The position numbers and the translations under genes are program-made. The notes beneath the pieces were generated by a model. The model was given only the letters and a program-made list of their open reading frames with translations, was not told the DNA's origin and ran no database searches. From positions 1-64,000 of the IMG/VR virus record IMGVR_UViG_3300017963_000239: a DNA stretch of 64,000 bases; one strand, written 5' to 3'. Source of the stretch: a virus. Shown here one piece after another: positions 5,203-22,691 of this stretch. Position 1 is the stretch's first letter; the number at the start of each line of letters is the position of its first letter.

Positions 5203-5769
5203 ATGGGCCGAAAGAAGAAACCGAACGCAACACGAAGGTCGAAGGAGTACGCGCGCCAACGATGGCAAGCGAGGAAGGAGCTGGCACTGGAGAGACTTGA
5301 AGGGAAGTGCGCTGGTTGTGGGTCGTCGGAGGACTTGCAGTTCGACCACATCGACCCGTCAACGAAGGAGCACAAGATCTCCAGCATCTACACCTACTCG
5401 ATGGAGAGGTTCCTAGCTGAAGTCGACAAGTGCCAACTGCTATGCCGCGAGTGCCACGAGAAGAAGTCGATCAAAGACGCGGGGAAGGAGTCATCCAAAG
5501 GTCTACACGGTTCACGTTCAGCCGCTCGGCACTGCGGGCCTCCGATGTGCGATGCGTGCAGAGAGGCTTCTCGGAAGTACCAGAAGATCAAGTGGATGAG
5601 ACGATTGCAGCGAGAGGGTTTGGTGGAGGTCACGCCGGCCGGTGAGGCTTTCATGGAAGGAGACAGAGACATGTGTGACGGAAGGAAGGGCAGGAAGGGC
5701 TATCCCGCAGCGCACGCGCGCACCCGAACCCATCTACGGGGGTGCTGGCACGCTGGAGAGTCCACCTGA
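5203..5769 (+). CDS. HNH homing-type endonuclease
   Basis: CAGC..LQFDHIDP..KCQLLCRECH; 3' end overlaps tRNA-Tyr. Confidence 0.85.
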   Translation: MGRKKKPNATRRSKEYARQRWQARKELALERLEGKCAGCGSSEDLQFDHIDPSTKEHKISSIYTYSMERFLAEVDKCQLLCRECHEKKSIKDAGKESSKGLHGSRSAARHCGPPMCDACREASRKYQKIKWMRRLQREGLVEVTPAGEAFMEGDRDMCDGRKGRKGYPAAHARTRTHLRGCWHAGEST

Positions 5770-7405: not shown

Positions 7406-7572
7406 GCAGCGTCCAACCGATCCGAGCACACACGCTTTCAGACTTCCAATCTGAGAATACGGGTTCGAATCCCGTGCCCTCCTCCATCGCCTTCGGGCGA
7501 GTAGTCAACGGGGGGCTCGTCTAACGGCTAGGACATCACAGCAAACACCTGCTCTGTTCCCTCGGACGCTGC
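7406..7572 (+). ncRNA. circularly permuted tRNA-Gly(TCC)-like RNA with CCAAC/CTCGG closing stem
   Basis: Order: anticodon arm, T arm, GCCCTCC-T-CCA, hairpin, GGGGGGC, D arm; closed by GCAGCGTCC/GGACGCTGC. Confidence 0.8.
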
Positions 7573-7579
7573 AAAGTCT

Positions 7580-7933
7580 TTACGGTCTGCGAGGGATCGT
7601 CATGCCGCTGTGGGTGCGGATGCCCAGCATCTCCTTCAAGATGCCGAGGGCCTTCTCATCATCGAACTGCTTGCACGAGAACACGTCCATCATGAACGTG
7701 CGTCGCAGCGGCCAGCAGTGGATGGAGATGTGCGAGGTGGAGATCATGGCGTAGGCCGAGATGCCGCCTTCGTCCAAGAACCCCTGGCTGTTCAATTTGC
7801 TCTTGTCGACGGGGATGCGCTTGAAGCGCGGACCGTCGATGACCTCCATGTCGAGCGCTCGCGCCAACGAGCTGAACAGCTCTCGTAGGTGGTGCTCGGT
7901 GAACACGATCTCATCGCGCACTGTCCCATCCAC
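7580..7933 (-). CDS. speD: S-adenosylmethionine decarboxylase proenzyme-like
   Basis: GGISAYAMISTSHISIHCWP..DVFSCKQF; GLHLVVD motif extends upstream of called start. Confidence 0.75.
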   Translation of the reverse strand: MDGTVRDEIVFTEHHLRELFSSLARALDMEVIDGPRFKRIPVDKSKLNSQGFLDEGGISAYAMISTSHISIHCWPLRRTFMMDVFSCKQFDDEKALGILKEMLGIRTHSGMTIPRRP

Positions 7934-8061
7934 GACGAGGTGCAGTCCGTCGATGACGTTGGCCGTGGCTCGGGATGGTCCGGCACCAGGATCTCCCAGT
8001 CAAGGTCGTTTTTCTCCCCCCAAAGGTGTCAGACGTTCGGGGGTCCGCACGTCGTGGGAGC

Positions 8062-8484
8062 ATGAAGATCACGAAAGACTCACATGTCGACCACAACCTC
8101 ACCACGGAGCATCTGGAGTTCATCAAGGAGCGCTTCGGACACATCGAAGAGTTCTTCATCGAGACCGTGGAGGTGCCTCTGCATCTTCCTCCGCTTCCTT
8201 GTGGGCTCTTCGGCCCGTTCATGGGCGATGAACCCGTGGAGGAGAGCGAGGTCTCCTACGTGCGCCGGGGCGACCGGCCGGGAGATTCCCGCGTCGTACA
8301 GCGCGCCCAACGGATGGTCCGGAAGATGACCGTCATCGGCGGCCCTCATGAGGGAGCCATCATCATGTTCACGGCCTACGGTGGGCCGTGCGCTCCACGC
8401 GAGCCGTGGGACGAGTCCCTGTCTCCGGAGGAGCGAGAAGAGAGCGTGGCTTTTTGGAAGGATCACGCGCTCGCCGCAGAGTAG
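8062..8484 (+). CDS. hypothetical protein
   Basis: GGAG RBS, typical codon usage. Confidence 0.6.
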   Translation: MKITKDSHVDHNLTTEHLEFIKERFGHIEEFFIETVEVPLHLPPLPCGLFGPFMGDEPVEESEVSYVRRGDRPGDSRVVQRAQRMVRKMTVIGGPHEGAIIMFTAYGGPCAPREPWDESLSPEEREESVAFWKDHALAAE

Positions 8485-8560
8485 GCCACCTTGGCTCAGT
8501 TGGTAGAGCAGCTGTTTCGTAAACAGCAGGTCTCCGGTTCAAGTCCGGAAGGTGGCTCCA
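8485..8560 (+). tRNA. tRNA-Thr(CGT)
   Basis: Cloverleaf, loop TTCGTAA, CCA. Confidence 0.92.
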
Positions 8561-8611
8561 TGTGGTGCGCAAGCACCGGCCTGGGAGTCGCTTTGGCTTC
8601 TCCCTCGTCTT

Positions 8612-8687
8612 GCCCCCATCGTCTAGTGGACCAGGACACCGCCCTTTCACGGCGGGAACAGGAGTTCGATTCTCCTTGGGGGTGCCA
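8612..8687 (+). tRNA. tRNA-Glu(TTC)
   Basis: Cloverleaf, loop CTTTCAC, CCA. Confidence 0.92.
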
Positions 8688-8730
8688 GGGGTTGGTCGGC
8701 GGTTAACTAGCCGGCCCGCTCCGTAGGTTT

Positions 8731-8803
8731 GCTTCGGTAGCTCAGATGGCAGAGCGGTGGAGTGAAGATCCACGCGTCGCTGGTTCGATTCCGGCCCGGA
8801 GCA
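8731..8803 (+). tRNA. tRNA-Phe(GAA)
   Basis: Cloverleaf, loop GTGAAGA. Confidence 0.9.
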
Positions 8804-8810
8804 CTATTTA

Positions 8811-8839
8811 TTGACAATCACTTAGCCACTTGATAGTGT
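8811..8839 (+). promoter_or_regulatory. TTGACAATC-type promoter
   Basis: TTGACA-17 nt-TAGTGT with TG extension. Confidence 0.6.
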
Positions 8840-8841
8840 CA

Positions 8842-8918
8842 CGGGACATAGCACAGTCTGGCAGTGCGCGAGCTTTGGGTGCTCGAAGTCGGCGGTTCGA
8901 ATCCGCCTGTCCCGACCA
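8842..8918 (+). tRNA. tRNA-Pro(TGG)
   Basis: Cloverleaf, loop TTTGGGT, CCA. Confidence 0.92.
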
Positions 8919-8968
8919 GCGGCGCACTCGGCTCAATGGAGAGCCATCGGCGTCAGAGGAGAATAGAG

Positions 8969-9049
8969 ATGGAAGCTGAAGCACTGGGACCCGCGGAGAG
9001 GATCATCGACACGGTCCTCACGTACAACGGGAAGAGCGAGGAGAGCTGA
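8969..9049 (+). pseudogene. duplicated, recoded N-terminus of the downstream vWA gene
   Basis: MEAEALGPAERIIDTVLTY then stop vs MDAETLGPAERIINTVLTY at 9051. Confidence 0.85.
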
Positions 9050-9050
9050 T

Positions 9051-10949
9051 ATGGACGCGGAGACTTTGGGTCCTGCCGAAAGGATCATCAACACAGTGCT
9101 AACCTACCAGGACCATCTCTGGCACAACCGTCCGGGGTTCGTCGTGACGGACAACTCGGCGGTGGGCGTCAAGTGGCAGCCGGTGACCACGAAGGACGAG
9201 GACGGCAAGAAGGTCGTCTATCAGGTCCACAAGCGTGGTAAGCGGCGCACTCGGACGAAGCTCGGCACGCTCTGGGCCGACAACACCATTCGGGACGAGA
9301 ACCGACGCAAGATCGGCGAGTACCGACCGGCGGGGCTTTTCCCTGAGGTGGCGACCTGGATGTACAAGCAGGTGGCCGACGTCTGGAGGATGGACAACGA
9401 GTTCGCCGCGCGGTGGGCGTCGTACCAGTTTCCTCAGGACCACAAAGACATGAAGGTCGTGCTTGCGGCGTTCATGCTGGTCCAGTCGCGGAAGGGCGAC
9501 CCCGTTCGAGAGGACGGGCAGGTCTTGTTCCACGACGACGACTTCCGGGAGGTCGGGGAGGCCATGTGTCTCATCCACCGCAGGGACAAGAAGGGCATCG
9601 ACCCGAAGATGCTGGCGCGGATTCGGGACGTGTTGGAGGTTCCTGCCATCGCGGAGCTGAACCGCGAGCTGGGGTTCGGGCGCTCCACGCGCACGCCGTT
9701 CTTGGGCCGTTGGCCGAAGGCGGTTCGGGCGTGGCTCCGATTCCGGGAGGAGAACCTGCCGGTGTTGGAGGGCTTGGTGAACAGTGGTCAGCGCAACATC
9801 GCGCGGAAGCTCGCGAAGGCTGTGGGCTACAAGCCTCAGTCCCCGAAGTTCTTCGAGGTGTTGGGCTGGACGCAGAGCCAGGCCAAGGATGGTCGCAGGA
9901 AGATCGCTCTCGGGCAGGACTTCTCGGGTACGGAAACTTGGGAAGGACTGAGCGAGCAGGAGATCTGCGAGCTGATCATGCGCGAGAAGACCAACTACAA
10001 GCGCATCGTCGGTCTGCTCCCGAAGGACGTGGGGCTGACTCGGGCCATCATGGCTGCGGCTGTGGAGGCGGGCTCCTTGTCCGACAAGGATCTGATCATC
10101 CAGGCGCCGACCCTGGAGGACTTGGGCTTGCTGAAGGTCCAGGAAATCAAGGAGCGGTGGGAGGCGGCCATGAGCCGTGCCGAGGACATGCGGGCGGCGA
10201 ACATCGCAGCTCGGATGCGTACCAAGGAGGGGCGCGAGAAGATGGAGGCCGCGGCCGACACTGCCTTGCAGCAGGCGGCTGAGGAAGAGATGAAGAACCT
10301 TCGGATCTACTTCATCGTCGACCGCTCCGGTTCGATGGACGACTGCATCGAGCGCGCCAAGAGCCACTTGAAGCGGTTCCTGCAGGGCTTCCCGCCGGAC
10401 CGCATCCACGTTTCGCACTTCAACACGGTGGGGCGTGAGGTGGAGATCAAGCACGCTTCCGCAGCGGGCGTCGAGCAAGCCTTCCTAGGCATCCAGGCCA
10501 CGGGTGGGACGAACTACGGCGCCGGCATTCGGGTGCTGCAGCACCGGCCCCCGAAGGACGACGAGGATACGCTGATGATCTTCGTCGGCGATGAGAAGGC
10601 GCACTCCTTCACGCACGACGTGCAGGTGTCGGGTCTGCGCCCCATGGCGTTCGGCTTCATCAAGGTGGAGTCGAACTGGGGCATGGCGGGTCGAGCTGTG
10701 CAGGACACGGCGAGGGAGCTGGGTATCCCCTGCTTCATGATCGAGGAGAGCACGTTCGGCGAGCCTGGCGAAGACCTGGACCCCTATGTCATTCCTCGGA
10801 CGATCCGGAATCTCGTCGCGGTTACTCCGGTCGGGCAGTACCACGGCGTGCAGCGCGTTGCGCCGCGGGTCACGCTGGTCGACCGCATCATGAAGACCGA
10901 CCTGCTCCACAAGCCTGTCTGGGCCACGGAGCTGTCGTCGGCAGCGTGA
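9051..10949 (+). CDS. vWA-domain protein, possibly Ro60/TROVE-like
   Basis: C-terminal MIDAS DRSGSM..GGT..VGDE; long basic helical N-terminal region. Confidence 0.7.
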   Translation: MDAETLGPAERIINTVLTYQDHLWHNRPGFVVTDNSAVGVKWQPVTTKDEDGKKVVYQVHKRGKRRTRTKLGTLWADNTIRDENRRKIGEYRPAGLFPEVATWMYKQVADVWRMDNEFAARWASYQFPQDHKDMKVVLAAFMLVQSRKGDPVREDGQVLFHDDDFREVGEAMCLIHRRDKKGIDPKMLARIRDVLEVPAIAELNRELGFGRSTRTPFLGRWPKAVRAWLRFREENLPVLEGLVNSGQRNIARKLAKAVGYKPQSPKFFEVLGWTQSQAKDGRRKIALGQDFSGTETWEGLSEQEICELIMREKTNYKRIVGLLPKDVGLTRAIMAAAVEAGSLSDKDLIIQAPTLEDLGLLKVQEIKERWEAAMSRAEDMRAANIAARMRTKEGREKMEAAADTALQQAAEEEMKNLRIYFIVDRSGSMDDCIERAKSHLKRFLQGFPPDRIHVSHFNTVGREVEIKHASAAGVEQAFLGIQATGGTNYGAGIRVLQHRPPKDDEDTLMIFVGDEKAHSFTHDVQVSGLRPMAFGFIKVESNWGMAGRAVQDTARELGIPCFMIEESTFGEPGEDLDPYVIPRTIRNLVAVTPVGQYHGVQRVAPRVTLVDRIMKTDLLHKPVWATELSSAA

Positions 10950-10957
10950 GGTGAACC

Positions 10958-11878
10958 ATGGGTTGGAGAGATCTGCTTCAGGCCGATGACGAGACCGTCG
11001 TCTCGGCGTGGGTCGGGGGCAGGACTCTCCGTACCCGAAACCGCACGTGGACCATCGAGGGGCGCCTCCCACCGGAGCACGGCTGGCACTCTTTCAGCAT
11101 CACGGGCCGAAAGGCCCGCTGGAAGGAGCCGACCAACGCTCCGATGGAGGTGCTTTTCGATCTGCAGCGCGGCTACCTCGTCGGGGACCGCCTCGTGGCG
11201 GACAACGTAGAGGTCGAGCTGGACCCCGCGAAGCTCGCGCAGCGCTTCGAGCGCGTGCACTTGGTGGAGGAAGGCTTGGACCGCTTCGCCCGCATCGCTG
11301 CGGGGCGCGTCTGTGACGATGGACCGCTCATCTACGAGGGGCCGGACATGCCGCTCGGCCCGGAGGACGACGTACTTCAGGCATTCCTGGACCGGAAAGG
11401 CACCGTAGACGCCGTTTCGGGGGTTCCCCCTGCTCTGGACGCGGCCTTCCGGTTCGAGTCCTGGCAGCGCTCTGAGGCCGAAAGACGGCGCCGTGAGGAG
11501 CGGGAGCGTCGGGAGCGAGAAGAGCGCCGCAGGCGCATCATGGAGCAGGTCGGCAGCGCAGCCGGTCGGAGGGCCATGGCGCGCGAGGACTTTGGCGAGG
11601 CTGCTCGGGCAGCGCTCGCGATGGGCAACGCCGAGTACTTGGATCATCGGCGAGCTGTAGGACGGAACGAGATGATCGTGCGGTTCCGTATAAACAGGCG
11701 GCGCTTCGAGTGCACCTGCGACGCGGAGACTCTGCGCATCATCGACTCGGGCATCTGCCTGACGAGTCATGACACCGGAAAGCAGTACGACAACTACTTC
11801 ACGTTGGAGTCGTTGCCTGGGGTCATTGAGGACGCGGAGCGTCAGGGCGTGCTCGTGGTGTTCCGCCACGTCGACTAG
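10958..11878 (+). CDS. putative divergent E2-like (Ubl-conjugating) protein
   Basis: C-terminal IIDSGICL resembles E2 G-x-ICL active site; operon context with JAB/Ubl/E1. Confidence 0.45.
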   Translation: MGWRDLLQADDETVVSAWVGGRTLRTRNRTWTIEGRLPPEHGWHSFSITGRKARWKEPTNAPMEVLFDLQRGYLVGDRLVADNVEVELDPAKLAQRFERVHLVEEGLDRFARIAAGRVCDDGPLIYEGPDMPLGPEDDVLQAFLDRKGTVDAVSGVPPALDAAFRFESWQRSEAERRRREERERREREERRRRIMEQVGSAAGRRAMAREDFGEAARAALAMGNAEYLDHRRAVGRNEMIVRFRINRRRFECTCDAETLRIIDSGICLTSHDTGKQYDNYFTLESLPGVIEDAERQGVLVVFRHVD

Positions 11879-11890
11879 GAGCTGAGAGAG

Positions 11891-12514
11891 ATGCACACGA
11901 CGAAGTTCGAGCTGGCGGACGGCCGTGGGGTCACTGTCGCCCACAACGGAGACTGGTCTGGGGACGCAGAGGTTACGTGGACGGAGAAGAACGGCAAGCG
12001 GGCGTGCACGATGGTGCCGGCCGACGTGCTTCTCCAGGTTGGGAACCAGGCGGCGTTCGAGGCCCTGAAGGGGAAGCTCATCAGCTTCATCGAAGATCTG
12101 GAGTGGGAGGAAGAGCCCGAACCGGTCAGGAAGGGGAACGACATGGAAGCTGGAGTGGTTCTCGGGCCGGGCGGCGAGCCGATCTATTGGCACGTTCCTT
12201 CCGACCGCCAAGTGGCGCACATTCCTGACAGCCAAGTGCTGTGGGATGTGTTCTTCAAGTACAAGGAGACGATGACGGGCTTCGCGCACAGTCATCCGGG
12301 CAGTGGGTCCCCGCTTCCGTCCCACATGGACTTGACCACCTTTGCTGCCAACGAAGTAGGACTCGGGAAGCGGTACGATTGGTGGATCGTCACCGGGAGC
12401 GCCGTAGGGCTCGTCCGGTGGAGGGGGCCGAAGAGGCTCGACTACGAAGTGTGGGCTCTGCTGTCTGAGGAGCCGGCATGGGTGAACGAGCTTCGAAGGG
12501 TTTCAACAGGCTGA
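11891..12514 (+). CDS. JAB/JAMM metalloprotease
   Basis: E...HSHP..PSHMD JAMM motif; JAB domain starts near ATG 12143. Confidence 0.8.
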   Translation: MHTTKFELADGRGVTVAHNGDWSGDAEVTWTEKNGKRACTMVPADVLLQVGNQAAFEALKGKLISFIEDLEWEEEPEPVRKGNDMEAGVVLGPGGEPIYWHVPSDRQVAHIPDSQVLWDVFFKYKETMTGFAHSHPGSGSPLPSHMDLTTFAANEVGLGKRYDWWIVTGSAVGLVRWRGPKRLDYEVWALLSEEPAWVNELRRVSTG

Positions 12515-12531
12515 CAGGAGTGGAGGTTGAG

Positions 12532-12858
12532 ATGGTACAGCGAATGCCAGGTGAAGATGGTGACGGAGCGGTCGAGCAGATCATGGACGCCGTGAACGTC
12601 GCACCACAGGACAACGAGGCCGTGTTGGAGATCACCTACGGTGGTCAGCAGGGCACTTTGACCGACCCGGTTCCGTGGGACGCTGCGGACGGCGACTTGA
12701 AGCAGTGGGCGACGGAGGCGTTGCAGGCTGGGGGCATCCCTGGTTTGGACGCCACGCCGGACGCGGACTTCACGGACTTCGTCGTCCACAAGTTCTCCGC
12801 GAAGGACGGCCTGCCCAACAGGGTCGTACTGAGACCCAAAACGGAATACGGGTATTGA
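12532..12858 (+). CDS. ubiquitin-like (beta-grasp) protein
   Basis: Small protein ending LRPKTEYG-Y, between JAB and E1; GGAGG RBS. Confidence 0.6.
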   Translation: MVQRMPGEDGDGAVEQIMDAVNVAPQDNEAVLEITYGGQQGTLTDPVPWDAADGDLKQWATEALQAGGIPGLDATPDADFTDFVVHKFSAKDGLPNRVVLRPKTEYGY

Positions 12859-12891
12859 CCGAATACAGTGTTTGGTTCTACAATACCAAAC

Positions 12892-13818
12892 ATGGTTGAG
12901 GTTGATGTTCGGGCTTTGGCGGAGGGTTATCAGGACGGAGCGAGCGCGAAGAAGCTGGCACGCCAGCACGGTGTGTCGGTTTGGACCGTGCTCGCCCGTC
13001 TGAGGTCCGCTGGAGTGGAGATACGCCCGAGACAGCCCGAGAAGCGTTTGGATCTTCCGAAGCCCGACCACTCGCTTTTGGTCGAGATTGTTGACGGCCT
13101 TCTTCTCGGTGATGGCAGTATTGATCGAAAGGGGGCTCTTCGATTGGAGCAAGCCCGCGACACTACGGGGTGGTTGTACGAGGTGCAGGGGCTCTTGAGA
13201 GCTGTTCGGTGTTCGTCTAGGATCGTTCCTATTCCTCCGAGGGAAAGGCGCATAGAGGATCGTGTGGTGAGATCTTCGGGAGGCGCATTGCTTTACACCC
13301 CGTGCTACGTCGAGTTGAAGAAACAGCGCGCACGGTGGTATCCGAAGGGGGAGAAGCGCGTTCCAAAGGGCATCAAGATGTCTCCGATGGTGCTAGCTCA
13401 GTGGTTGGCCGGGGACGGTACATACGACCATTCGGGGCGCCTACGTTTCTGCACTGATGGATTCAGGCGCGAGGATGTGGACCTTCTCATTCGTGCCCTG
13501 GGGGTGGTTGGGCTACAGGCAACCAGGGCGGCGAGGCCGCGACCGGGCCAGTACCACGTCAACGTGGATCGCCTGGACGAAGCTGTGAAGGTTAAGGCCA
13601 TGATCGAGGACTTGGTTCCTGCGTGCTTCCGATACAAGCTCTCCTACGTGCGACCACCTATTCGGAAGCCTGGGAGGAAGCTGACCGACGAGCAGGTCTT
13701 GGAGATTAGAGAGCGGGCAGAGCAGGGTGAGTCCAAGGCTGCGCTGGCAGAACGCTTCGGTGTGTCCGACACGGCTGCCGGAAACATCGTTAAAAGACGA
13801 ACGTACAAGGATCTGTGA
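12892..13818 (+). CDS. LAGLIDADG homing endonuclease with HTH extensions
   Basis: GLLLGDGSI and QWLAGDG motifs; atypical codon usage. Confidence 0.85.
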   Translation: MVEVDVRALAEGYQDGASAKKLARQHGVSVWTVLARLRSAGVEIRPRQPEKRLDLPKPDHSLLVEIVDGLLLGDGSIDRKGALRLEQARDTTGWLYEVQGLLRAVRCSSRIVPIPPRERRIEDRVVRSSGGALLYTPCYVELKKQRARWYPKGEKRVPKGIKMSPMVLAQWLAGDGTYDHSGRLRFCTDGFRREDVDLLIRALGVVGLQATRAARPRPGQYHVNVDRLDEAVKVKAMIEDLVPACFRYKLSYVRPPIRKPGRKLTDEQVLEIRERAEQGESKAALAERFGVSDTAAGNIVKRRTYKDL

Positions 13819-13826
13819 GGATACCG

Positions 13827-14402
13827 ATGGCACGAGTAGTAGTAGTTGGAGTTGGTGCTTTGGGTTCCCACGTGGTGCAGTACCTGCGCAACGTGGCCGA
13901 TGAGATCGTGGTGATTGATCACGATAGGGTCGAGCGCAAGAACGTGCTGTCGCAGTTCCACGGCAAGGGCACGGTAGGCAAGTCGAAGGTCCAGGCGATC
14001 CAACAGTCGATGAACTTCATGTTCGGTGTGAAGGTCCACACGGTCCCTCACAAGCTCGTGGAGGACAACGCCGAGCAGTTGCTCGGGGGTGCAGACCTCG
14101 TGTTGGACTGCTTGGACAACGGAGAGTCCCGAGCTGTCGTGCAGCGCTACGTCCGTGAGGCCGGTACGCCGTGCTTGCACGGAGCGCTCGACGCGAACGG
14201 CACTTTCGGACAGGTCATGTGGGACGACGAGTTCCACATCGACTACGAGACGACGCGCGGAGGAGCTACCTGCGAGAACGGAGAGCACTTGCCCTTCATC
14301 TCGATGGTGTCCGCTTTCCTGGCGCGCGCCGCACAAGCGTTCCTGACGCAAGGCAAGCAGATTGGGTTCCTCGTCTATCTGGACGGGGCCAAGCGAGTCT
14401 GA
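13827..14402 (+). CDS. E1/ThiF-family adenylyltransferase
   Basis: VVVGVGALGS, IDHDRVERKN..Q, GKSKV, DLVLDCLDN, ATCE. Confidence 0.88.
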   Translation: MARVVVVGVGALGSHVVQYLRNVADEIVVIDHDRVERKNVLSQFHGKGTVGKSKVQAIQQSMNFMFGVKVHTVPHKLVEDNAEQLLGGADLVLDCLDNGESRAVVQRYVREAGTPCLHGALDANGTFGQVMWDDEFHIDYETTRGGATCENGEHLPFISMVSAFLARAAQAFLTQGKQIGFLVYLDGAKRV

Positions 14403-14455
14403 GGACCATGATCGTAGTAGCTGGGCGCGGTCGTGCAGATTCGTGTGGAAAGAGG

Positions 14456-14484
14456 TTGACGAGTCAACCTCTACCTGATACCTT
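14456..14484 (+). promoter_or_regulatory. promoter upstream of tRNA-mimic cluster
   Basis: TTGACG-17 nt-TACCTT with TG extension. Confidence 0.55.
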
Positions 14485-14513
14485 GCTAGATGCGTCGGGC
14501 TAGCCCGGCACTT

Positions 14514-14625
14514 GGGGTCTTGAGAAGTTCGGTTCTCATTATCTGGGATTGCCCCTCGGCCTCGTCACACAGGCCAACCAGTACTTCCCCACACGCTTGG
14601 GGGTTCGATTCCCCCAGACCCCGCC
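14514..14625 (+). ncRNA. tRNA-like RNA whose anticodon arm is replaced by a CTCGG/CCAAC hairpin
   Basis: GGGGTCT/AGACCCC acceptor, D-like hairpin, T arm GGGGGTTCGATTCCCCC, central CCTCGGCCT-CGTCACAC-AGGCCAAC. Confidence 0.7.
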
Positions 14626-14630
14626 GATTA

Positions 14631-14773
14631 GTGACCAACGGATCAGATCGTACATGCAACGTATGCGGGTTCGAGTCCCGTCACTTCCGCCAAACTGGAA
14701 ATGAAGCCCGACTGGTAGGGCACTAGCCTCGAAAGCTAGCACAACGCTAACCCCGGTCTCCTCACTCGGTCAC
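14631..14773 (+). ncRNA. circularly permuted tRNA-Ser(CGA)-like RNA with CCAAC/CTCGG stem
   Basis: T arm, CACTTCC-G-CCA, GGAAATG, D arm, anticodon arm loop CTCGAAA; closed by GTGACC/GGTCAC. Confidence 0.78.
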
Positions 14774-14784
14774 AAGTCGAATCT

Positions 14785-14933
14785 GCCCCTTTGGGAGAGT
14801 GATACTCCGCTTGCTACCCTCCAGCTCTTGCCACTCCCCTCATTGGAGGGACCGGGCAAGTGCTCACAAGCCGCCCAAGTATTGGGCACCATCTCCGCAA
14901 GAGATCCGTGGTTTGATTCCACGAAGGGGCTCC
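14785..14933 (+). ncRNA. tRNA-like RNA with greatly extended anticodon arm
   Basis: GCCCCTT/AAGGGGC acceptor, T-like arm CGTGGTTTGATTCCACG; shares TGCTCACAAGC with 15077 element. Confidence 0.5.
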
Positions 14934-14939
14934 GGTCAA

Positions 14940-15062
14940 GTCGACCAACTTGAAAGTGCTAACACGCAATTCGCCCAGTGGTAGGGCGTCAACCTGCTAA
15001 GTTGAAAGTCACTGGTTCAAATCCAGTATTGCATTCCAATTCAGCACCTCACCTCGGACGAC
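14940..15062 (+). ncRNA. tRNA(GCT)-like cloverleaf embedded in CCAAC/CTCGG stem
   Basis: D, anticodon (CTGCTAA) and T arms within GTCGACCAAC...CTCGGACGAC. Confidence 0.72.
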
Positions 15063-15076
15063 ACGACCAACCTTTC

Positions 15077-15192
15077 GGGCCGCTGGAATTTTGGTTCCAA
15101 ACCTTTACCCAGCATAGCTCCTCGGCCCCGTCACACGGGCCAACACGCGTTGCTCACAAGCACTCCGAGTTCGACTCTCGGGCGGTCCACCA
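15077..15192 (+). ncRNA. tRNA-like RNA whose anticodon arm is replaced by a CTCGG/CCAAC hairpin
   Basis: GGGCCGC/GCGGTCC-A-CCA, T arm, central CCTCGGCCC-CGTCACAC-GGGCCAAC. Confidence 0.72.
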
Positions 15193-15207
15193 GATACAAT
15201 AACCTTT

Positions 15208-15720
15208 GTGAACGAGGAGACTAGAACCTGCAAGGACTGTGGTAAGTCCAAACCGATCAAGTCGTTCAAGCCTACTGGGAGGGGCGGCTATCGACGGCGC
15301 GTTTGCTATCCTTGCTACCGAGCTAGGGAGGATAAGAGAAACCCAGCCTACAAGCTGGAGCGCCAGCGTCGCTACAGGGCGAACAACCCCGTAACCAGCA
15401 TCTTGTGGGACTGTAGGCAGTCGGATAGGAAACGAGGGTTCAGCGGGAACGACTTGGACAAGGAGTTCATCGCAGAGAAGATTTCAGAGGGTTGCCTGTA
15501 CTGCGGAGAGCGAAGCATCAGGATGACCCTAGATAGGATCGACAACGAGAAGCCGCACGACAAAAGCAACGTCGCCCCCTGTTGCATTCGCTGCAACTAT
15601 TTGAAGGGGTCGATGCCTTACGAGGCTTGGTTGCACATCGTTCCTGCGGTTCGAGAAGCGAGTGAGTTAGGGCTGTTCGGATCTTGGCGTTCGGAGCCCA
15701 TCTCGAAAAAGGGACCGTAG
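15208..15720 (+). CDS. HNH-type endonuclease
   Basis: CKDC..CYPC, CLYC..LDRIDN..H..NVAPCCIRCN. Confidence 0.8.
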   Translation: MNEETRTCKDCGKSKPIKSFKPTGRGGYRRRVCYPCYRAREDKRNPAYKLERQRRYRANNPVTSILWDCRQSDRKRGFSGNDLDKEFIAEKISEGCLYCGERSIRMTLDRIDNEKPHDKSNVAPCCIRCNYLKGSMPYEAWLHIVPAVREASELGLFGSWRSEPISKKGP

Positions 15721-15737
15721 TCATCTACGGGGCACGG

Positions 15738-15764
15738 GCGGTTCGAGGCCGCAGCGGTCCACCA
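15738..15764 (+). pseudogene. orphan T arm and acceptor 3' end matching the 15077 RNA
   Basis: GCGGTTCGAGGCCGC-A-GCGGTCCACCA; same terminal 11 nt as 15182-15192. Confidence 0.7.
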
Positions 15765-15765
15765 A

Positions 15766-15933
15766 GGCATCCAACAGATCAAGTCATACATGCATCCTCG
15801 AAAGAGGGCTCCAGGTTCGAGTCCTGGCTCCGCGACCAGCCCGCAAGGGCTACAAACCGCGGAGTGGCGGAATGGTAGACGCACTTGTGTTTGGAACAAG
15901 CAAAACGCTTTCTGGCCTGTTCACTCGGATGCC
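15766..15933 (+). ncRNA. circularly permuted class-II tRNA-like RNA with CCAAC/CTCGG stem
   Basis: Variable arm, T arm, CTCCGCG-A-CCA, hairpin, CGCGGAG, Leu-type D arm, anticodon arm loop GTTTGGA; closed by GGCATCC/GGATGCC. Confidence 0.78.
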
Positions 15934-15994
15934 CTATCTCTGGTTCCCCTGATTGGCAGGGCTCGCTGGGTTCGACTCCCAGGTGCCGGACCAA

Positions 15995-16224
15995 GACAGC
16001 CAACTGGTGAGATCACACACGCACTGGTTTAGCGCTTGACTGAATATCAAGAGTACGTTGGTTCGAGACCAACCCCTCCCGCTCTGCTTCGGACTGCACG
16101 AAGGTTCCGCTGATCCCCGGTAAGACGGCCATGACGCCGGGGCTAGGTAACCATGGCCAGCAGTCCGGAGTGGAGCGGGAGGGTAGCTGAGAAATCGCAA
16201 CTCTGGTCCCTCCCCTCGGCTGTC
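15995..16224 (+). ncRNA. circularly permuted tRNA-Phe(GAA)-like RNA opened in the D loop
   Basis: 3' D strand, loop CTGAATA, T arm, CCCTCCC, long linker, GGGAGGG-TAGCT; closed by GACAGCC/GGCTGTC. Confidence 0.72.
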
Positions 16225-22652: not shown

Positions 22653-22691
22653 CGGCGGGGGTCGGGGGTTCGAGTCCCCCTAGGTCCACCA
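22653..22691 (+). pseudogene. 3' half of tRNA-Ala
   Basis: T arm plus TAGGTCC-A-CCA pairs with GGGCCTG at 22041. Confidence 0.8.

What the first reader, a model, noticed from the sequence alone, without database searches (positions are those of the whole stretch)
7406..16224. Candidate system: Ro60-like vWA protein + ubiquitin-like conjugation operon flanked by tRNA-bait RNAs
Seen: the vWA / E2-like / JAB / Ubl / E1 operon (9051-14402) is followed directly by a promoter and a dense cluster of motif-bearing tRNA mimics (14514-16224), with another copy 1.5 kb upstream. Known: Ro60 is a helical TROVE ring plus vWA domain that binds Y RNAs, which tether it to effector proteins; bacterial E1-E2-Ubl-JAB sets act in phage-host conflict. 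Inference: the RNAs may be adaptors whose common stem binds the vWA protein while the tRNA part lures tRNA-binding host proteins such as anticodon nucleases for Ubl tagging, i.e. RNA-directed ubiquitin-like modification as counter-defence. The link rests on adjacency only.
Basis: inference. Interest (0 to 1): 0.92.

Follow-up and report, generated by a model that had tools for sequence, protein, structure and literature searches.

The report
Ro60-like protein, tRNA-mimic RNAs, ubiquitin-like cassette
A jumbo-phage tRNA island carries a previously unannotated Ro60-like RNA-binding protein, a small ubiquitin-like activation pathway and a family of circularly permuted tRNA look-alike RNAs, and the same gene-plus-RNA cassette also sits in the chromosomes of many myxobacteria, so it is a conserved cellular system that phages have captured, of unknown function.

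Summary
9051-10946 encodes a protein whose predicted fold matches Ro60 (TROVE ring plus vWA/MIDAS), although Pfam TROVE does not detect it. It is followed by a conserved 306-aa protein (no UBC fold found; one invariant Cys), a JAB peptidase, a small protein with an invariant C-terminal Gly (Ubl candidate) and a 195-aa ThiF-type E1. 12868-13815 is not part of the pathway: it is a LAGLIDADG homing endonuclease found only here.

7406-7572 and 14514-16224 hold tRNA mimics with T arm, 7-bp acceptor, D arm, a 7-nt anticodon-like loop, and a conserved two-helix module (CC-AAC / CACUC-GG) at the variable-arm position. They occur in two circular permutations. In 30 copies, 95% of pair cells are paired and 24 of 31 pairs show compensatory changes.

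Cassette and RNAs co-occur in 14 of 20 loci examined, including myxobacterial chromosomes without tRNA arrays. About 80 of 301 sampled genomes of that phylum have a homologue of the 306-aa protein; all seven such regions fetched held the cassette.

Best reading: a new variant of the Ro60/YrlA ribonucleoprotein, coupled to a Ubl pathway. RNA-directed Ubl tagging is neither tested nor excluded. A phage-specific counter-defence role is weakened.

The parts
7406..7572 (+). Permuted tRNA mimic A. A 9-bp terminal stem (GCAGCGUCC/GGACGCUGC) closes it. An anticodon-like hairpin (loop CUUCCAA) lies before the T arm. The acceptor is GCCCUCC-U-CCA / GGGGGGC, closed by a UUCG hairpin, and is followed by a D arm.
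   Evidence: Covariance model R1 scores it 69 bits although it was not a seed. Stem found. Rfam gives only a partial tRNA match, 24 bits.
9051..10949 (+). Ro60-like protein, 632 aa. It has an N-terminal beta-rich insert, a helical TROVE-like ring, and a C-terminal vWA domain with an intact MIDAS site (D424-x-S426-x-S428, T487, D514 invariant).
   Evidence: AF2 pLDDT 85.7. Foldseek's top 10 hits are all Ro60/TROVE. VIA Z 12.0-12.6 over 406-425 residues. Invariant columns. Pfam TROVE is negative.
10958..11878 (+). Protein X, 306 aa: two OB-like barrels, a long coiled coil, and a C-terminal helix / four-strand sheet / loop / helix domain. Cys267 (motif DAG-I/V-CL) is the only Cys invariant out to the chromosomal homologues. 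It is a candidate non-canonical E2 or an RNA-binding partner.
   Evidence: AF2 pLDDT 84.3. No significant fold match. More than 1,300 homologues at about 60% identity. Invariant Cys.
11891..12514 (+). JAB/JAMM metallopeptidase, 207 aa, with the motif HSHPGSGSPLPSHMD.
   Evidence: Pfam Prok-JAB 2.2e-4. Sequence. The chromosomal orthologue carries the NCBI name Mov34/MPN/PAD-1 and the canonical HxHx7Sx2D motif.
12478..12858 (+). Ubl candidate. The conserved core is about 85 aa starting near 12607, and the likely start codon is Met36 at 12583. The C-terminus is invariant, RPKT-x-(F/Y)-G, followed by 0-5 residues; here it ends ...EYG-Y.
   Evidence: A tail after the Gly is present in 8 of 8 loci with JAB and absent in 3 of 3 without. 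No sequence match to any known Ubl; the fold was not predicted.
12868..13818 (+). LAGLIDADG homing endonuclease with HTH domains, inserted between the Ubl and E1 genes. It is not part of the system.
   Evidence: Pfam LAGLIDADG_2 7.6e-16. Absent from L001 and L004-L012, where the Ubl and ThiF genes abut.
13815..14402 (+). Minimal ThiF-type E1 adenylyltransferase, 195 aa, with the GxGxxG nucleotide loop and a conserved ATCE-x-GEHLPF cysteine.
   Evidence: Pfam ThiF 7.8e-26. PADLOC E1-E2 models down to 3e-15. NCBIfam hits. Sequences.
14514..14626 (+). Non-permuted mimic B. It has the acceptor GGGGUCU/AGACCCC, a D arm and a T arm. The module is present as a capped hairpin, CUC-GGCCU-CGUCACAC-AGGCC-AAC.
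   Evidence: MFE z = -2.95.
14631..14773 (+). Permuted mimic. Order: terminal stem GUGACC/GGUCAC, T arm, acceptor CACUUCC-G-CCA / GGAAAUG, D arm, anticodon arm with loop CUCGAAA (CGA).
   Evidence: R1 109 bits (seed). The MFE fold gives the same arms. Rfam YrlA scores only 22.8 bits but aligns the same T / acceptor / D order.
14785..14934 (+). Non-permuted mimic C. The acceptor is GCCCCUU/AAGGGGC, with a 113-nt body of nested hairpins and a CACUC-[CCCUC..GAGGG]-ACC module variant.
   Evidence: z = -3.78.
14941..15061 (+). A complete cloverleaf (ARAGORN calls it tRNA-Ser GCU, but it lacks the long variable arm), enclosed by module-like leader/trailer stems (CC-AAC ... CUC-GG).
   Evidence: R1 32 bits. 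The orthologous unit in L005 (15076-15200) has the same flanks but a different anticodon.
15077..15192 (+). Non-permuted mimic D. The acceptor is GGGCCGC/GCGGUCC-A-CCA, and the capped module is CUC-GGCCC-CGUCACAC-GGGCC-AAC. Compared with B, the hairpin stem shows a compensatory change.
   Evidence: z = -3.43.
15208..15720 (+). HNH endonuclease gene inserted in the RNA array.
   Evidence: PHROG 1035, endonuclease VII/HNH, 2.9e-21.
15711..15764 (+). Acceptor plus T-arm minihelix ending GCGGUCC-A-CCA, the same 3' end as D. It is probably the 3' remnant of an element split by the HNH gene.
   Evidence: Inference.
15766..15933 (+). Permuted mimic. Terminal stem GGCAUCC/GGAUGCC, a GAAA hairpin before the T arm, acceptor CUCCGCG-A-CCA / CGCGGAG closed by a GCAA hairpin, D arm, anticodon loop GUUUGGA (UUG).
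   Evidence: R1 112 bits (seed). Its orthologue in L006 scores 99.6 bits.
15940..15993 (+). Small tRNA-like hairpin set: acceptor-like stem, D-like hairpin, T arm, ACCA. Weakly supported.
   Evidence: z = -0.19, not significant.
15995..16224 (+). Permuted mimic H. Terminal stem GACAGCC/GGCUGUC, an anticodon-like arm (loop CUGAAUA) before the T arm, and acceptor CCCUCCC/GGGAGGG closed by a 96-nt hairpin. A U-rich tract follows.
   Evidence: R1 38.8 bits, full length..

Best explanation
The locus is a Ro60/Y-RNA-type ribonucleoprotein cassette of a new kind.

What it consists of. The tRNA-shaped RNAs keep the T-loop/D-loop elbow, a 7-bp acceptor stem and, in most copies, a 5-bp/7-nt anticodon-like arm whose loop differs from copy to copy. 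All of them carry one conserved two-helix module (P1 and P2, with CC-AAC, UACAAGC and CACUC-GG strands) where a tRNA has its variable arm. The RNA ends lie either at P1, with the acceptor capped as in YrlA, or at the acceptor, with P1 capped. The folded body therefore matters, not a chargeable 3' end.

How it most likely works. By analogy with Ro60 and Y RNA, and from the conserved linkage, the Ro60-like ring most likely binds the P1/P2 module and displays the tRNA-like body. The neighbouring genes form a minimal ubiquitin-like pathway: JAB trims the Ubl to its invariant terminal Gly, the ThiF-type E1 adenylates it, and protein X, through its single invariant Cys267, is the best candidate carrier. 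This pathway acts on or with the RNP. Its target is probably a protein that docks on the tRNA mimic, or the RNP itself.

Where it comes from. The system is cellular: it is chromosomal in many Myxococcota. Jumbo phages with large tRNA islands have captured it, presumably to survey, protect or bait factors that recognise tRNA anticodon loops during infection.

Shown here: the RNA structure, the protein folds and motifs, the JAB/tail correlation, and the co-occurrence of cassette and RNAs. Inferred: who binds whom, Ubl transfer through X, and the physiological role.
For: - Ro60-like fold. Invariant MIDAS site.
- RNA structure with covariation in every helix. Independent MFE folds. Same T arm / closed acceptor / D arm order as YrlA.
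- The anticodon-like loop is the most variable loop, while the T loop and the module strands are nearly invariant.
- The gene order is conserved in 10 other phage or MAG loci and in chromosomal loci at about 38% identity in the Ro60-like protein.
- In whole records of 197-200 kb and in an 11.6-Mb genome, the strong RNA hits lie only beside the cassette.
- In chromosomal versions the RNAs lie just upstream of the Ro60-like gene instead of downstream of E1, so the linkage survives rearrangement.
- L011 and L006 have bacterial flanking genes and no tRNA arrays, yet carry both cassette and RNAs.
- The Ubl terminal Gly and its C-terminal tail track JAB, 11 of 11 loci.
- Single invariant Cys in X.
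- Precedents: phage Ro60 with Y-like RNAs (PMC4201824, PMC12135203); M. smegmatis YrlA with a 7-bp acceptor is cut by RNase P and receives CCA (PMC4201824); vWA proteins coupled to Ubl systems (PMC7159879).
Against: - Pfam TROVE does not detect the protein, and neither sequence nor profile searches of PDB find Ro60. The structural superposition has a high rmsd (5.4-6.3 A).
- The module lacks the GNCGAA/CGAA motif of known bacterial Y RNAs, and Rfam YrlA scores 22.8 bits against a gathering score of 69.
- X shows no UBC fold, and the Ubl fold is untested.
- Members of the RNA family occur in tRNA arrays of genome G056, which has no Ro60-like gene. Three cassettes (L028, L012, L004) have no RNA, or only a weak one, in the sequence available.
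- No RNA-seq data were available.
Confidence: 0.55

Rival explanations
1. In the phage, the RNAs are adaptors that lure host tRNA-binding defence proteins, such as anticodon nucleases, to the Ro60-like scaffold. There E1 and X attach the Ubl to them. This would be RNA-directed Ubl tagging used as counter-defence.
For: Anticodon-like loops are diversified among otherwise near-identical paralogues, for example four copies in L009 with the same stem and loops CUUUAGA, CUGCAAC, CUGAAGA and AUUGGGA. The RNP genes and Ubl genes are tightly linked. The cassette sits in phage tRNA islands.
Against: The same cassette with its RNAs is chromosomal in many Myxococcota and flanked by housekeeping genes. 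A phage counter-defence role can therefore at most be secondary. No E2 fold was found. No target is known, and nothing shows conjugation.
Confidence: 0.15
2. The E1 and Ubl are a sulfur relay of the ThiS/MoaD/TtuB type. They thiolate tRNAs or the mimics. X would be the RNA-binding sulfur transferase and the Ro60-like protein an RNA chaperone.
For: The best E1 family matches are ThiF/MoeB adenylyltransferases. The small carrier has a terminal Gly and a JAB partner, as in the known CysO/Mec+ and TtuB systems (my own knowledge, not tested here). X has OB-like domains and a conserved Cys. The setting is tRNA-rich.
Against: No PP-loop ATPase, rhodanese or cysteine desulfurase domain was seen in the cassette proteins. 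Only one Cys in X is invariant, so an Fe-S site is unlikely. The terminal motif is FG or YG rather than GG.
Confidence: 0.12
3. The RNAs are working decoder tRNAs: permuted, split or long-arm forms matured by RNase P and other enzymes. They lie beside the protein cassette only because both sit in a tRNA island.
For: Acceptor stems are 7 bp, and N-CCA follows the 3' strand in about half of the copies. U33 and a purine at position 37 are kept. Some discriminator bases fit the anticodon: U73 with UCC, G73 with CGA. Family members sit inside tRNA arrays in a genome that lacks the cassette.
Against: The RNAs accompany the cassette in chromosomal loci that have no tRNA array. Many copies have capped acceptors without CCA. 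The phage already has canonical tRNAs with the same anticodons. The conserved module strands have no counterpart in tRNAs.
Confidence: 0.08
4. The elements are decaying tRNA pseudogenes or debris left by homing endonucleases, and have no function of their own.
For: HNH and LAGLIDADG genes are interspersed. At least one element (15711-15764) looks like a remnant, and other orphan T arms in the window end in the same GGUCCACCA.
Against: Compensatory changes occur in every helix across 30 copies from phages and chromosomes. The single-stranded motifs are conserved, and the position next to the cassette is conserved.
Confidence: 0.03

Closest known systems
Ro60 (Rsr) with YrlA Y RNAs of bacteria and phages (Chen et al. 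2014, PMC4201824; Wang et al. 2018, bioRxiv 10.1101/312249; Thermus phage phiLo Ro60, PMC12135203)
   Same: A ring-plus-vWA protein is encoded next to small RNAs. The RNAs have paired 5' and 3' ends and a body that mimics tRNA in the order T arm, closed acceptor stem, D arm. Such modules occur in phages. The 7-bp acceptor resembles that of M. smegmatis YrlA.
   Different: Pfam TROVE does not detect the protein, and it has an extra N-terminal beta domain. The RNAs keep a full anticodon-like stem-loop, which YrlA lacks. The conserved module branches from the variable-arm position, not from the anticodon stem, and has different motifs (CC-AAC, UACAAGC, CACUCGG rather than GNCGAA). Non-permuted isoforms coexist with permuted ones. 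The partner genes are a Ubl, E1, JAB and protein X, not RtcB/RtcA or PNPase.
Prokaryotic ubiquitin-like conjugation cassettes (E1-E2-JAB-Ubl), including vWA-linked Ubl systems (Kaur et al. 2020, PMC7159879)
   Same: A ThiF-type E1, a JAMM/JAB peptidase, a small protein ending in Gly that needs trimming, and a vWA protein in the same operon.
   Different: The E1 is minimal at 195 aa. No UBC-fold E2 and no RING E3 are recognisable. The vWA protein is Ro60-like rather than MoxR-associated. Structured RNAs are part of the cassette.
Circularly permuted tRNA genes (red alga Cyanidioschyzon; an archaeon), as discussed in 10.1101/312249
   Same: The 3' half (T arm, 3' acceptor strand, CCA) precedes the 5' half (5' acceptor strand, D arm, anticodon arm), with leader and trailer paired.
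   Different: No bulge-helix-bulge motif or splicing endonuclease is known in bacteria. The paired ends carry a conserved protein-binding-like module. Many copies lack CCA.

Membership tests
Ro60 / TROVE proteins | Helical (HEAT-like) TROVE ring followed by a vWA domain | tested here: met
   Foldseek's top 10 hits are all Ro60/TROVE (E 4.7e-8 to 8.4e-6, 487-559 aligned columns). VIA gives Z 12.0-12.6 with 406-425 residues aligned over model 6-594. The rmsd of 5.4-6.3 A is high.
Ro60 / TROVE proteins | Match to the Pfam TROVE model (PF05731) | tested here: not met
   No hit at E <= 0.1 for the protein and none at E <= 1 in the 82-kb record. Profile and sequence searches of PDB find only vWA domains.
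Ro60 / TROVE proteins | vWA domain with a MIDAS metal site | tested here: met
   D424, S426, S428, T487 and D514 are invariant in 34 homologues.
Ro60 / TROVE proteins | Binds an adjacent Y RNA | not testable with these tools
   Only linkage is shown: 14 of 20 cassette loci have a strong RNA copy within about 6 kb.
YrlA (Rfam RF02553) | Score at or above the Rfam gathering threshold | tested here: not met
   Best hit 22.8 bits against 69, at 14664-14721, model positions 30-81.
YrlA (Rfam RF02553) | T arm, closed acceptor-like stem and D arm in that order, enclosed by paired 5' and 3' ends | tested here: met
YrlA (Rfam RF02553) | The anticodon stem continues into the Ro60-binding helix with a GNCGAA motif, and there is no anticodon loop | tested here: not met
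   A separate 5-bp/7-nt anticodon-like arm is present, and the conserved module carries other motifs. The feature itself is taken from PMC4201824 and 10.1101/312249.
Ubl conjugation system (E1-E2-Ubl-JAB) | ThiF-fold adenylating E1 | tested here: met
   Pfam ThiF 7.8e-26. PADLOC E1-E2 models 3.1e-15.
Ubl conjugation system (E1-E2-Ubl-JAB) | JAMM/JAB peptidase | tested here: met
   Prok-JAB 2.2e-4, below the Pfam cutoff. The H-x-H...S-x-x-D motif is present. NCBI names the orthologue Mov34/MPN.
Ubl conjugation system (E1-E2-Ubl-JAB) | Beta-grasp Ubl ending in Gly | tested here: inconclusive
   An invariant terminal Gly, with a tail that tracks JAB, is shown. The fold was not predicted, and there is no sequence match to known Ubls.
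Ubl conjugation system (E1-E2-Ubl-JAB) | UBC-fold E2 with a catalytic Cys | tested here: inconclusive
   No UBC match by Foldseek, VIA-wide, Pfam or a PDB profile search. There is a single invariant Cys267 after a four-strand sheet, and weak RWD-type hits at Z 3.6-3.7.
Canonical tRNA (RF00005) | Cloverleaf scoring above the Rfam threshold or called by ARAGORN | tested here: not met
   Only 14964-15038 is called. The mimics score 24 bits or less against a threshold of 29.

The most novel reading that the evidence does not exclude
The cassette performs RNA-guided ubiquitin-like modification. A library of tRNA-shaped baits with diversified anticodon loops, held on a Ro60-like ring, recruits proteins that read tRNA anticodon loops (nucleases, modifiers, toxins). 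E1 and X then attach the Ubl to the recruited protein. An alternative is that the activated Gly of the Ubl is esterified to the bait's CCA end, as an amino acid is to a tRNA. Myxobacteria and their jumbo phages would each use this against the other.
Probability: 0.15. Interest if true: 0.95.

Novelty: new variant of a known kind. Interest (0 to 1): 0.8.

Why it matters
Ro60 and Y RNAs are conserved from bacteria to humans, yet what the tRNA-like YrlA domain recruits is still unknown.

This cassette gives that question a new genetic handle. It is a Ro60-like family invisible to Pfam, with RNAs that retain a complete and diversified anticodon arm, and it is hard-wired to a ubiquitin-like activation pathway. 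It is frequent in cultivable myxobacteria and in their jumbo phages.

It would be the first link between a Ro60-type RNP and Ubl chemistry. It also offers a natural series of both circular permutations of one tRNA-like fold. If the Ubl is aimed by the RNA, this would be a new principle of target selection in prokaryotic ubiquitin-like systems.

Tried and rejected
- Near-identity DNA search of the phage collection: no match. A protein search found only Virus Rctr197k.
- Sequence and profile searches of PDB did not find Ro60. Only fold comparison did.
- PHROGs, PADLOC and NCBIfam gave nothing for the Ro60-like protein, X or the Ubl.
- X against PDB (Foldseek), BFVD and the VIA-wide search: no significant match. 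The ESM Atlas gave no usable lead for X or the Ubl.
- A simple CTCGG/CCAAC stem-pair count was no better than shuffled sequence, 13 hits against a mean of 8. One apparent hit, 5429-5533, lies inside an HNH ORF and was dropped.
- The covariance model also picks up adjacent tRNA pairs (partial matches to positions 33-107, up to about 42 bits). Only full-length hits of 55 bits or more, or hits carrying the module motifs, were counted. The G098 hit was rejected as a false positive of this kind.
- No RtcB, CCA-adding enzyme or Pfam TROVE in the 82-kb record. The record is only about 54% complete.
- No RNA holder was listed among public runs, so expression could not be examined and read laying was not used.
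Genomic context was obtained through the search for related loci, the genome search and the fetch from genomes instead.

Full report
**Setting.** The window is the first 64 kb of an 81.9-kb IMG/VR virus record, estimated about 54% complete. Its GC content is 60.6%. It carries 49 tRNA genes and a tmRNA, interspersed with HNH homing endonuclease genes. The only relative in the GenBank phage collection is Virus Rctr197k, 197 kb, from an enrichment culture. Two IMG/VR contigs of 161 and 200 kb are also related.

**Proteins: the Ro60-like protein.** The 632-aa product of 9051-10946 has a Pfam VWA_2 domain at residues 420-510 and no TROVE hit. An exhaustive HMMER search found 288 relatives, mostly 590-680 aa. 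In an alignment of 34 of them the MIDAS residues D424, S426, S428, T487 and D514 are invariant.

- The AlphaFold model is confident: pLDDT 85.7, pTM 0.79.
- Its ten best Foldseek matches in PDB are all Ro60/TROVE entries: Thermus phage phiLo, Xenopus, human and Deinococcus. E-values run from 4.7e-8 to 8.4e-6 over 487-559 aligned columns.
- VIA-align gives Z 12.0-12.6 with 406-425 residues aligned across model residues 6-594, that is, both the ring and the vWA domain.
- The rmsd is high (5.4-6.3 A), and sequence-based searches do not see Ro60.

I call the protein Ro60-like, not a Pfam TROVE member. NCBI annotates a chromosomal orthologue only as 'VWA domain-containing protein'.

**Proteins: the 'E2-like' gene.** The gene at 10958-11875 encodes a 306-aa protein with more than 1,300 homologues at about 60% identity and no Pfam domain. 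Its model (pLDDT 84.3) shows two OB-like barrels, a long coiled coil and a small C-terminal domain.

No UBC fold was found by Foldseek, by an exhaustive VIA search, or by a profile search of PDB. The best match is the tandem-OB domain of Mpa at Z 5.3. The C-terminal domain gives only weak RWD-type matches, Z 3.6-3.7. Aligned with chromosomal homologues at about 30% identity, exactly one cysteine is invariant: Cys267, in the motif DAG-I/V-CL just after the fourth strand. An E2-like role is therefore possible but not shown.

**Proteins: JAB, Ubl and E1.**
- 11891-12511 is a JAB peptidase, with a weak Pfam hit and a JAMM motif. The orthologue is named Mov34/MPN.
- 13815-14399 is a minimal ThiF-type E1.
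- 12478-12855 has no recognisable family. Its conserved 85-aa core ends in an invariant RPKT-x-(F/Y)-G followed by 0-5 residues.
- In the three loci without a JAB gene (L006, L009, L010) the protein ends exactly at that Gly. In all eight loci with JAB it has a tail. This is the expected signature of a Ubl or sulfur-carrier protein that JAB trims and the E1 then adenylates.
It is absent from every related locus.

**RNAs: what the elements are.** Nine T-arm motifs outside called tRNAs cluster at 7459 and 14599-16057. Reading them against related loci shows a common plan:

- a terminal stem P1 ending ...CC on the 5' side and beginning GG... on the 3' side;
- a second helix P2;
- the strand UACA(A/C)GC;
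- a T arm with GGUUCGAnUCC;
- a 7-nt 3' acceptor strand, often followed by N-CCA;
- a loop, then the complementary 5' acceptor strand;
- U8 and a D arm with GG;
- a 5-bp stem with a 7-nt loop (U at position 2, a purine at position 6);
- then ...CACUC and the other P1 strand.

This is a tRNA circularly permuted at the variable arm, with the acceptor capped.

**RNAs: statistical support.** On 12 hand-bounded copies from 6 contigs, 94.1% of pair cells are standard pairs. Column shuffles give 71%, and sliding the partners gives 27-43%. Compensatory changes occur in 24 of 31 pairs.

A covariance model built from these copies recovered elements that were not seeds:
- window 7409-7569, 69 bits;
- window 15996-16223, 38.8 bits, which carries a 96-nt insertion in the acceptor loop;
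- L001 19502-19670, 76.9 bits;
- L005 15445-15586, 84 bits.

On 30 copies, 18 of them not seeds, 95.3% of cells pair and the covariation score is 0.72 against 0.20. That alignment was fitted to the model, which favours the structure.

RNAfold, used independently, returns the same arms for 14631-14773. Rfam's YrlA model aligns the T arm, closed acceptor and D arm of 14664-14721, but at 22.8 bits against a threshold of 69.

**RNAs: the second topology.** Elements at 14514-14626, 14785-14934 and 15077-15192 have their ends at a 7-bp acceptor stem. In them the same module is a capped hairpin, CUC-GGCCY-CGUCACAC-RGGCC-AAC, lying between the D/anticodon region and the T arm. The MFE z-scores are -2.95 to -3.78. 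The same form occurs in L005, L006, L007 and L008.

A complete cloverleaf at 14964-15038 is enclosed by module-like leader and trailer stems. Its flanks are conserved in L005, although the anticodon there differs.

**RNAs: the variable loop.** The anticodon-like loop is the most variable loop in the family, whereas the T loop and the module strands are nearly invariant. Four paralogues in L009 share the stem CUCGU/ACGAG but have loops CUUUAGA, CUGCAAC, CUGAAGA and AUUGGGA.

**Co-occurrence in phage and MAG loci.** The gene order Ro60-like, X, (JAB), Ubl, E1 is conserved in L001, L004 and L005 and in seven MAG contigs. In whole records of 161-200 kb and in an 11.6-Mb genome, hits above 69 bits lie only beside the cassette.

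**Co-occurrence in bacterial chromosomes.** L011 and L006 are decisive. There the cassette and its RNAs are flanked by ordinary bacterial genes: acyl-CoA dehydrogenase, a TonB-dependent receptor, a cytochrome c554-like protein, a polysaccharide deacetylase and an S9 peptidase. ARAGORN finds no tRNA gene in either locus.

A search of 301 genomes of that phylum found homologues of X in 80. All seven X-homologue regions that I fetched contain the cassette, complete in six of them; L028 shows only the Ro60-like gene, X and JAB in the 18 kb fetched. Five of the seven are the distant chromosomal form, with the Ro60-like protein 37-40% identical to the phage one. Two further RNA-anchored regions, L034 and L035, also hold it. 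Five of these seven chromosomal-type loci carry strong copies of the RNA immediately upstream of the Ro60-like gene on the same strand, in L027 it lies 5.4 kb upstream, and L028 has none.

**Tally.** Of 20 cassette loci examined:
- 14 have a copy of 55 bits or more within about 6 kb;
- L007 has moderate copies;
- L004 and L031 have weak or contig-edge copies;
- L010, L012 and L028 have none in the sequence available.

Conversely, true family members also sit inside 20-tRNA arrays in genome G056, which has no Ro60-like gene. Others lie away from the cassette in G115 and G144.

**Interpretation.** The closest known system is the Ro60/YrlA RNP, which is also known from phages (PMC4201824, PMC12135203, PMC7824862). 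The differences are real.

- The protein escapes the TROVE model.
- The RNAs retain a complete anticodon-like arm, which YrlA lacks (10.1101/312249).
- The conserved module branches from the variable-arm position and has other motifs.
- Both permutations coexist.
- The partner genes are a Ubl pathway rather than RNA-repair enzymes. No RtcB is present in this record.
- vWA proteins coupled to Ubl systems are known, but only in a different context (PMC7159879).
- I found no paper that describes this cassette.

That the ring binds P1/P2, that X carries the Ubl, and that the target is chosen through the tRNA mimic are all inferences. But the chromosomal distribution shows that the system is first of all cellular.

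**Limits.**
- No expression data were available.
- The Ubl fold was not predicted.
- The taxonomic label of the genome sample rests on MAG titles.

Noticed in passing
window 12868-13818: A LAGLIDADG endonuclease with HTH domains is inserted precisely between the Ubl and E1 genes. Its stop overlaps the E1 start (GTGA). It is absent from all 10 related loci first compared.
   Followed up: partly
window 8969-9031: The first ~21 codons of the Ro60-like gene are duplicated in tandem just upstream, inside a 61-aa ORF (8864-9049). The copy is 76% identical at protein level.
   Followed up: no
window 15208-15764: An HNH gene sits between mimic D (3' end GCGGUCC-ACCA) and a minihelix with the same 3' end. 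This looks like an element split by the endonuclease, with a replacement copy alongside. Orphan T arms ending GGUCCACCA or AGUCCACCA also occur at 22664, 24148 and 37398.
   Followed up: no
window 14964-15038 and L005 15099-15174: ARAGORN calls a 'tRNA-Ser(GCU)' that has no long variable arm. The syntenic unit in L005 has nearly the same acceptor, T arm and flanks, but its anticodon is UAA.
   Followed up: partly
window 7580-7933 (- strand): A short ORF matches the phage S-adenosylmethionine decarboxylase family (phrog_3125, 1e-16). It lies between mimic A and the next tRNAs.
   Followed up: no
L009 2073-2206: One permuted mimic has the loop CUUUAGA, so its anticodon position reads UUA, complementary to the UAA stop codon.
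   Followed up: no
L032 9106-9254 and L033 9091-9237 (genome G056): Bona fide members of the RNA family (79 and 63 bits, with the CCAAC/CACUCGG motifs) lie inside 20-tRNA arrays on 1.3-Mb contigs of a genome in which no Ro60-like gene was found.
   Followed up: partly
L026, L027, L029 (chromosomal cassettes): In three complete or near-complete genomes, an insertion of roughly 4-7 kb separates JAB from the Ubl-E1 pair. Its content was not examined.
   Followed up: no
L001 (KX853510) 8983-10932 and 10935-11873: The GenBank record of Virus Rctr197k annotates the Ro60-like gene only as a misc_feature. It misses the X gene and calls an opposite-strand ORF there instead.
   Followed up: no
window 27928-28530 (- strand): A cluster of tRNA-like elements lies on the strand opposite to all other tRNAs. 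It includes an ARAGORN call with a 2-nt 'anticodon' and two orphan T arms (27936, 28165).
   Followed up: no
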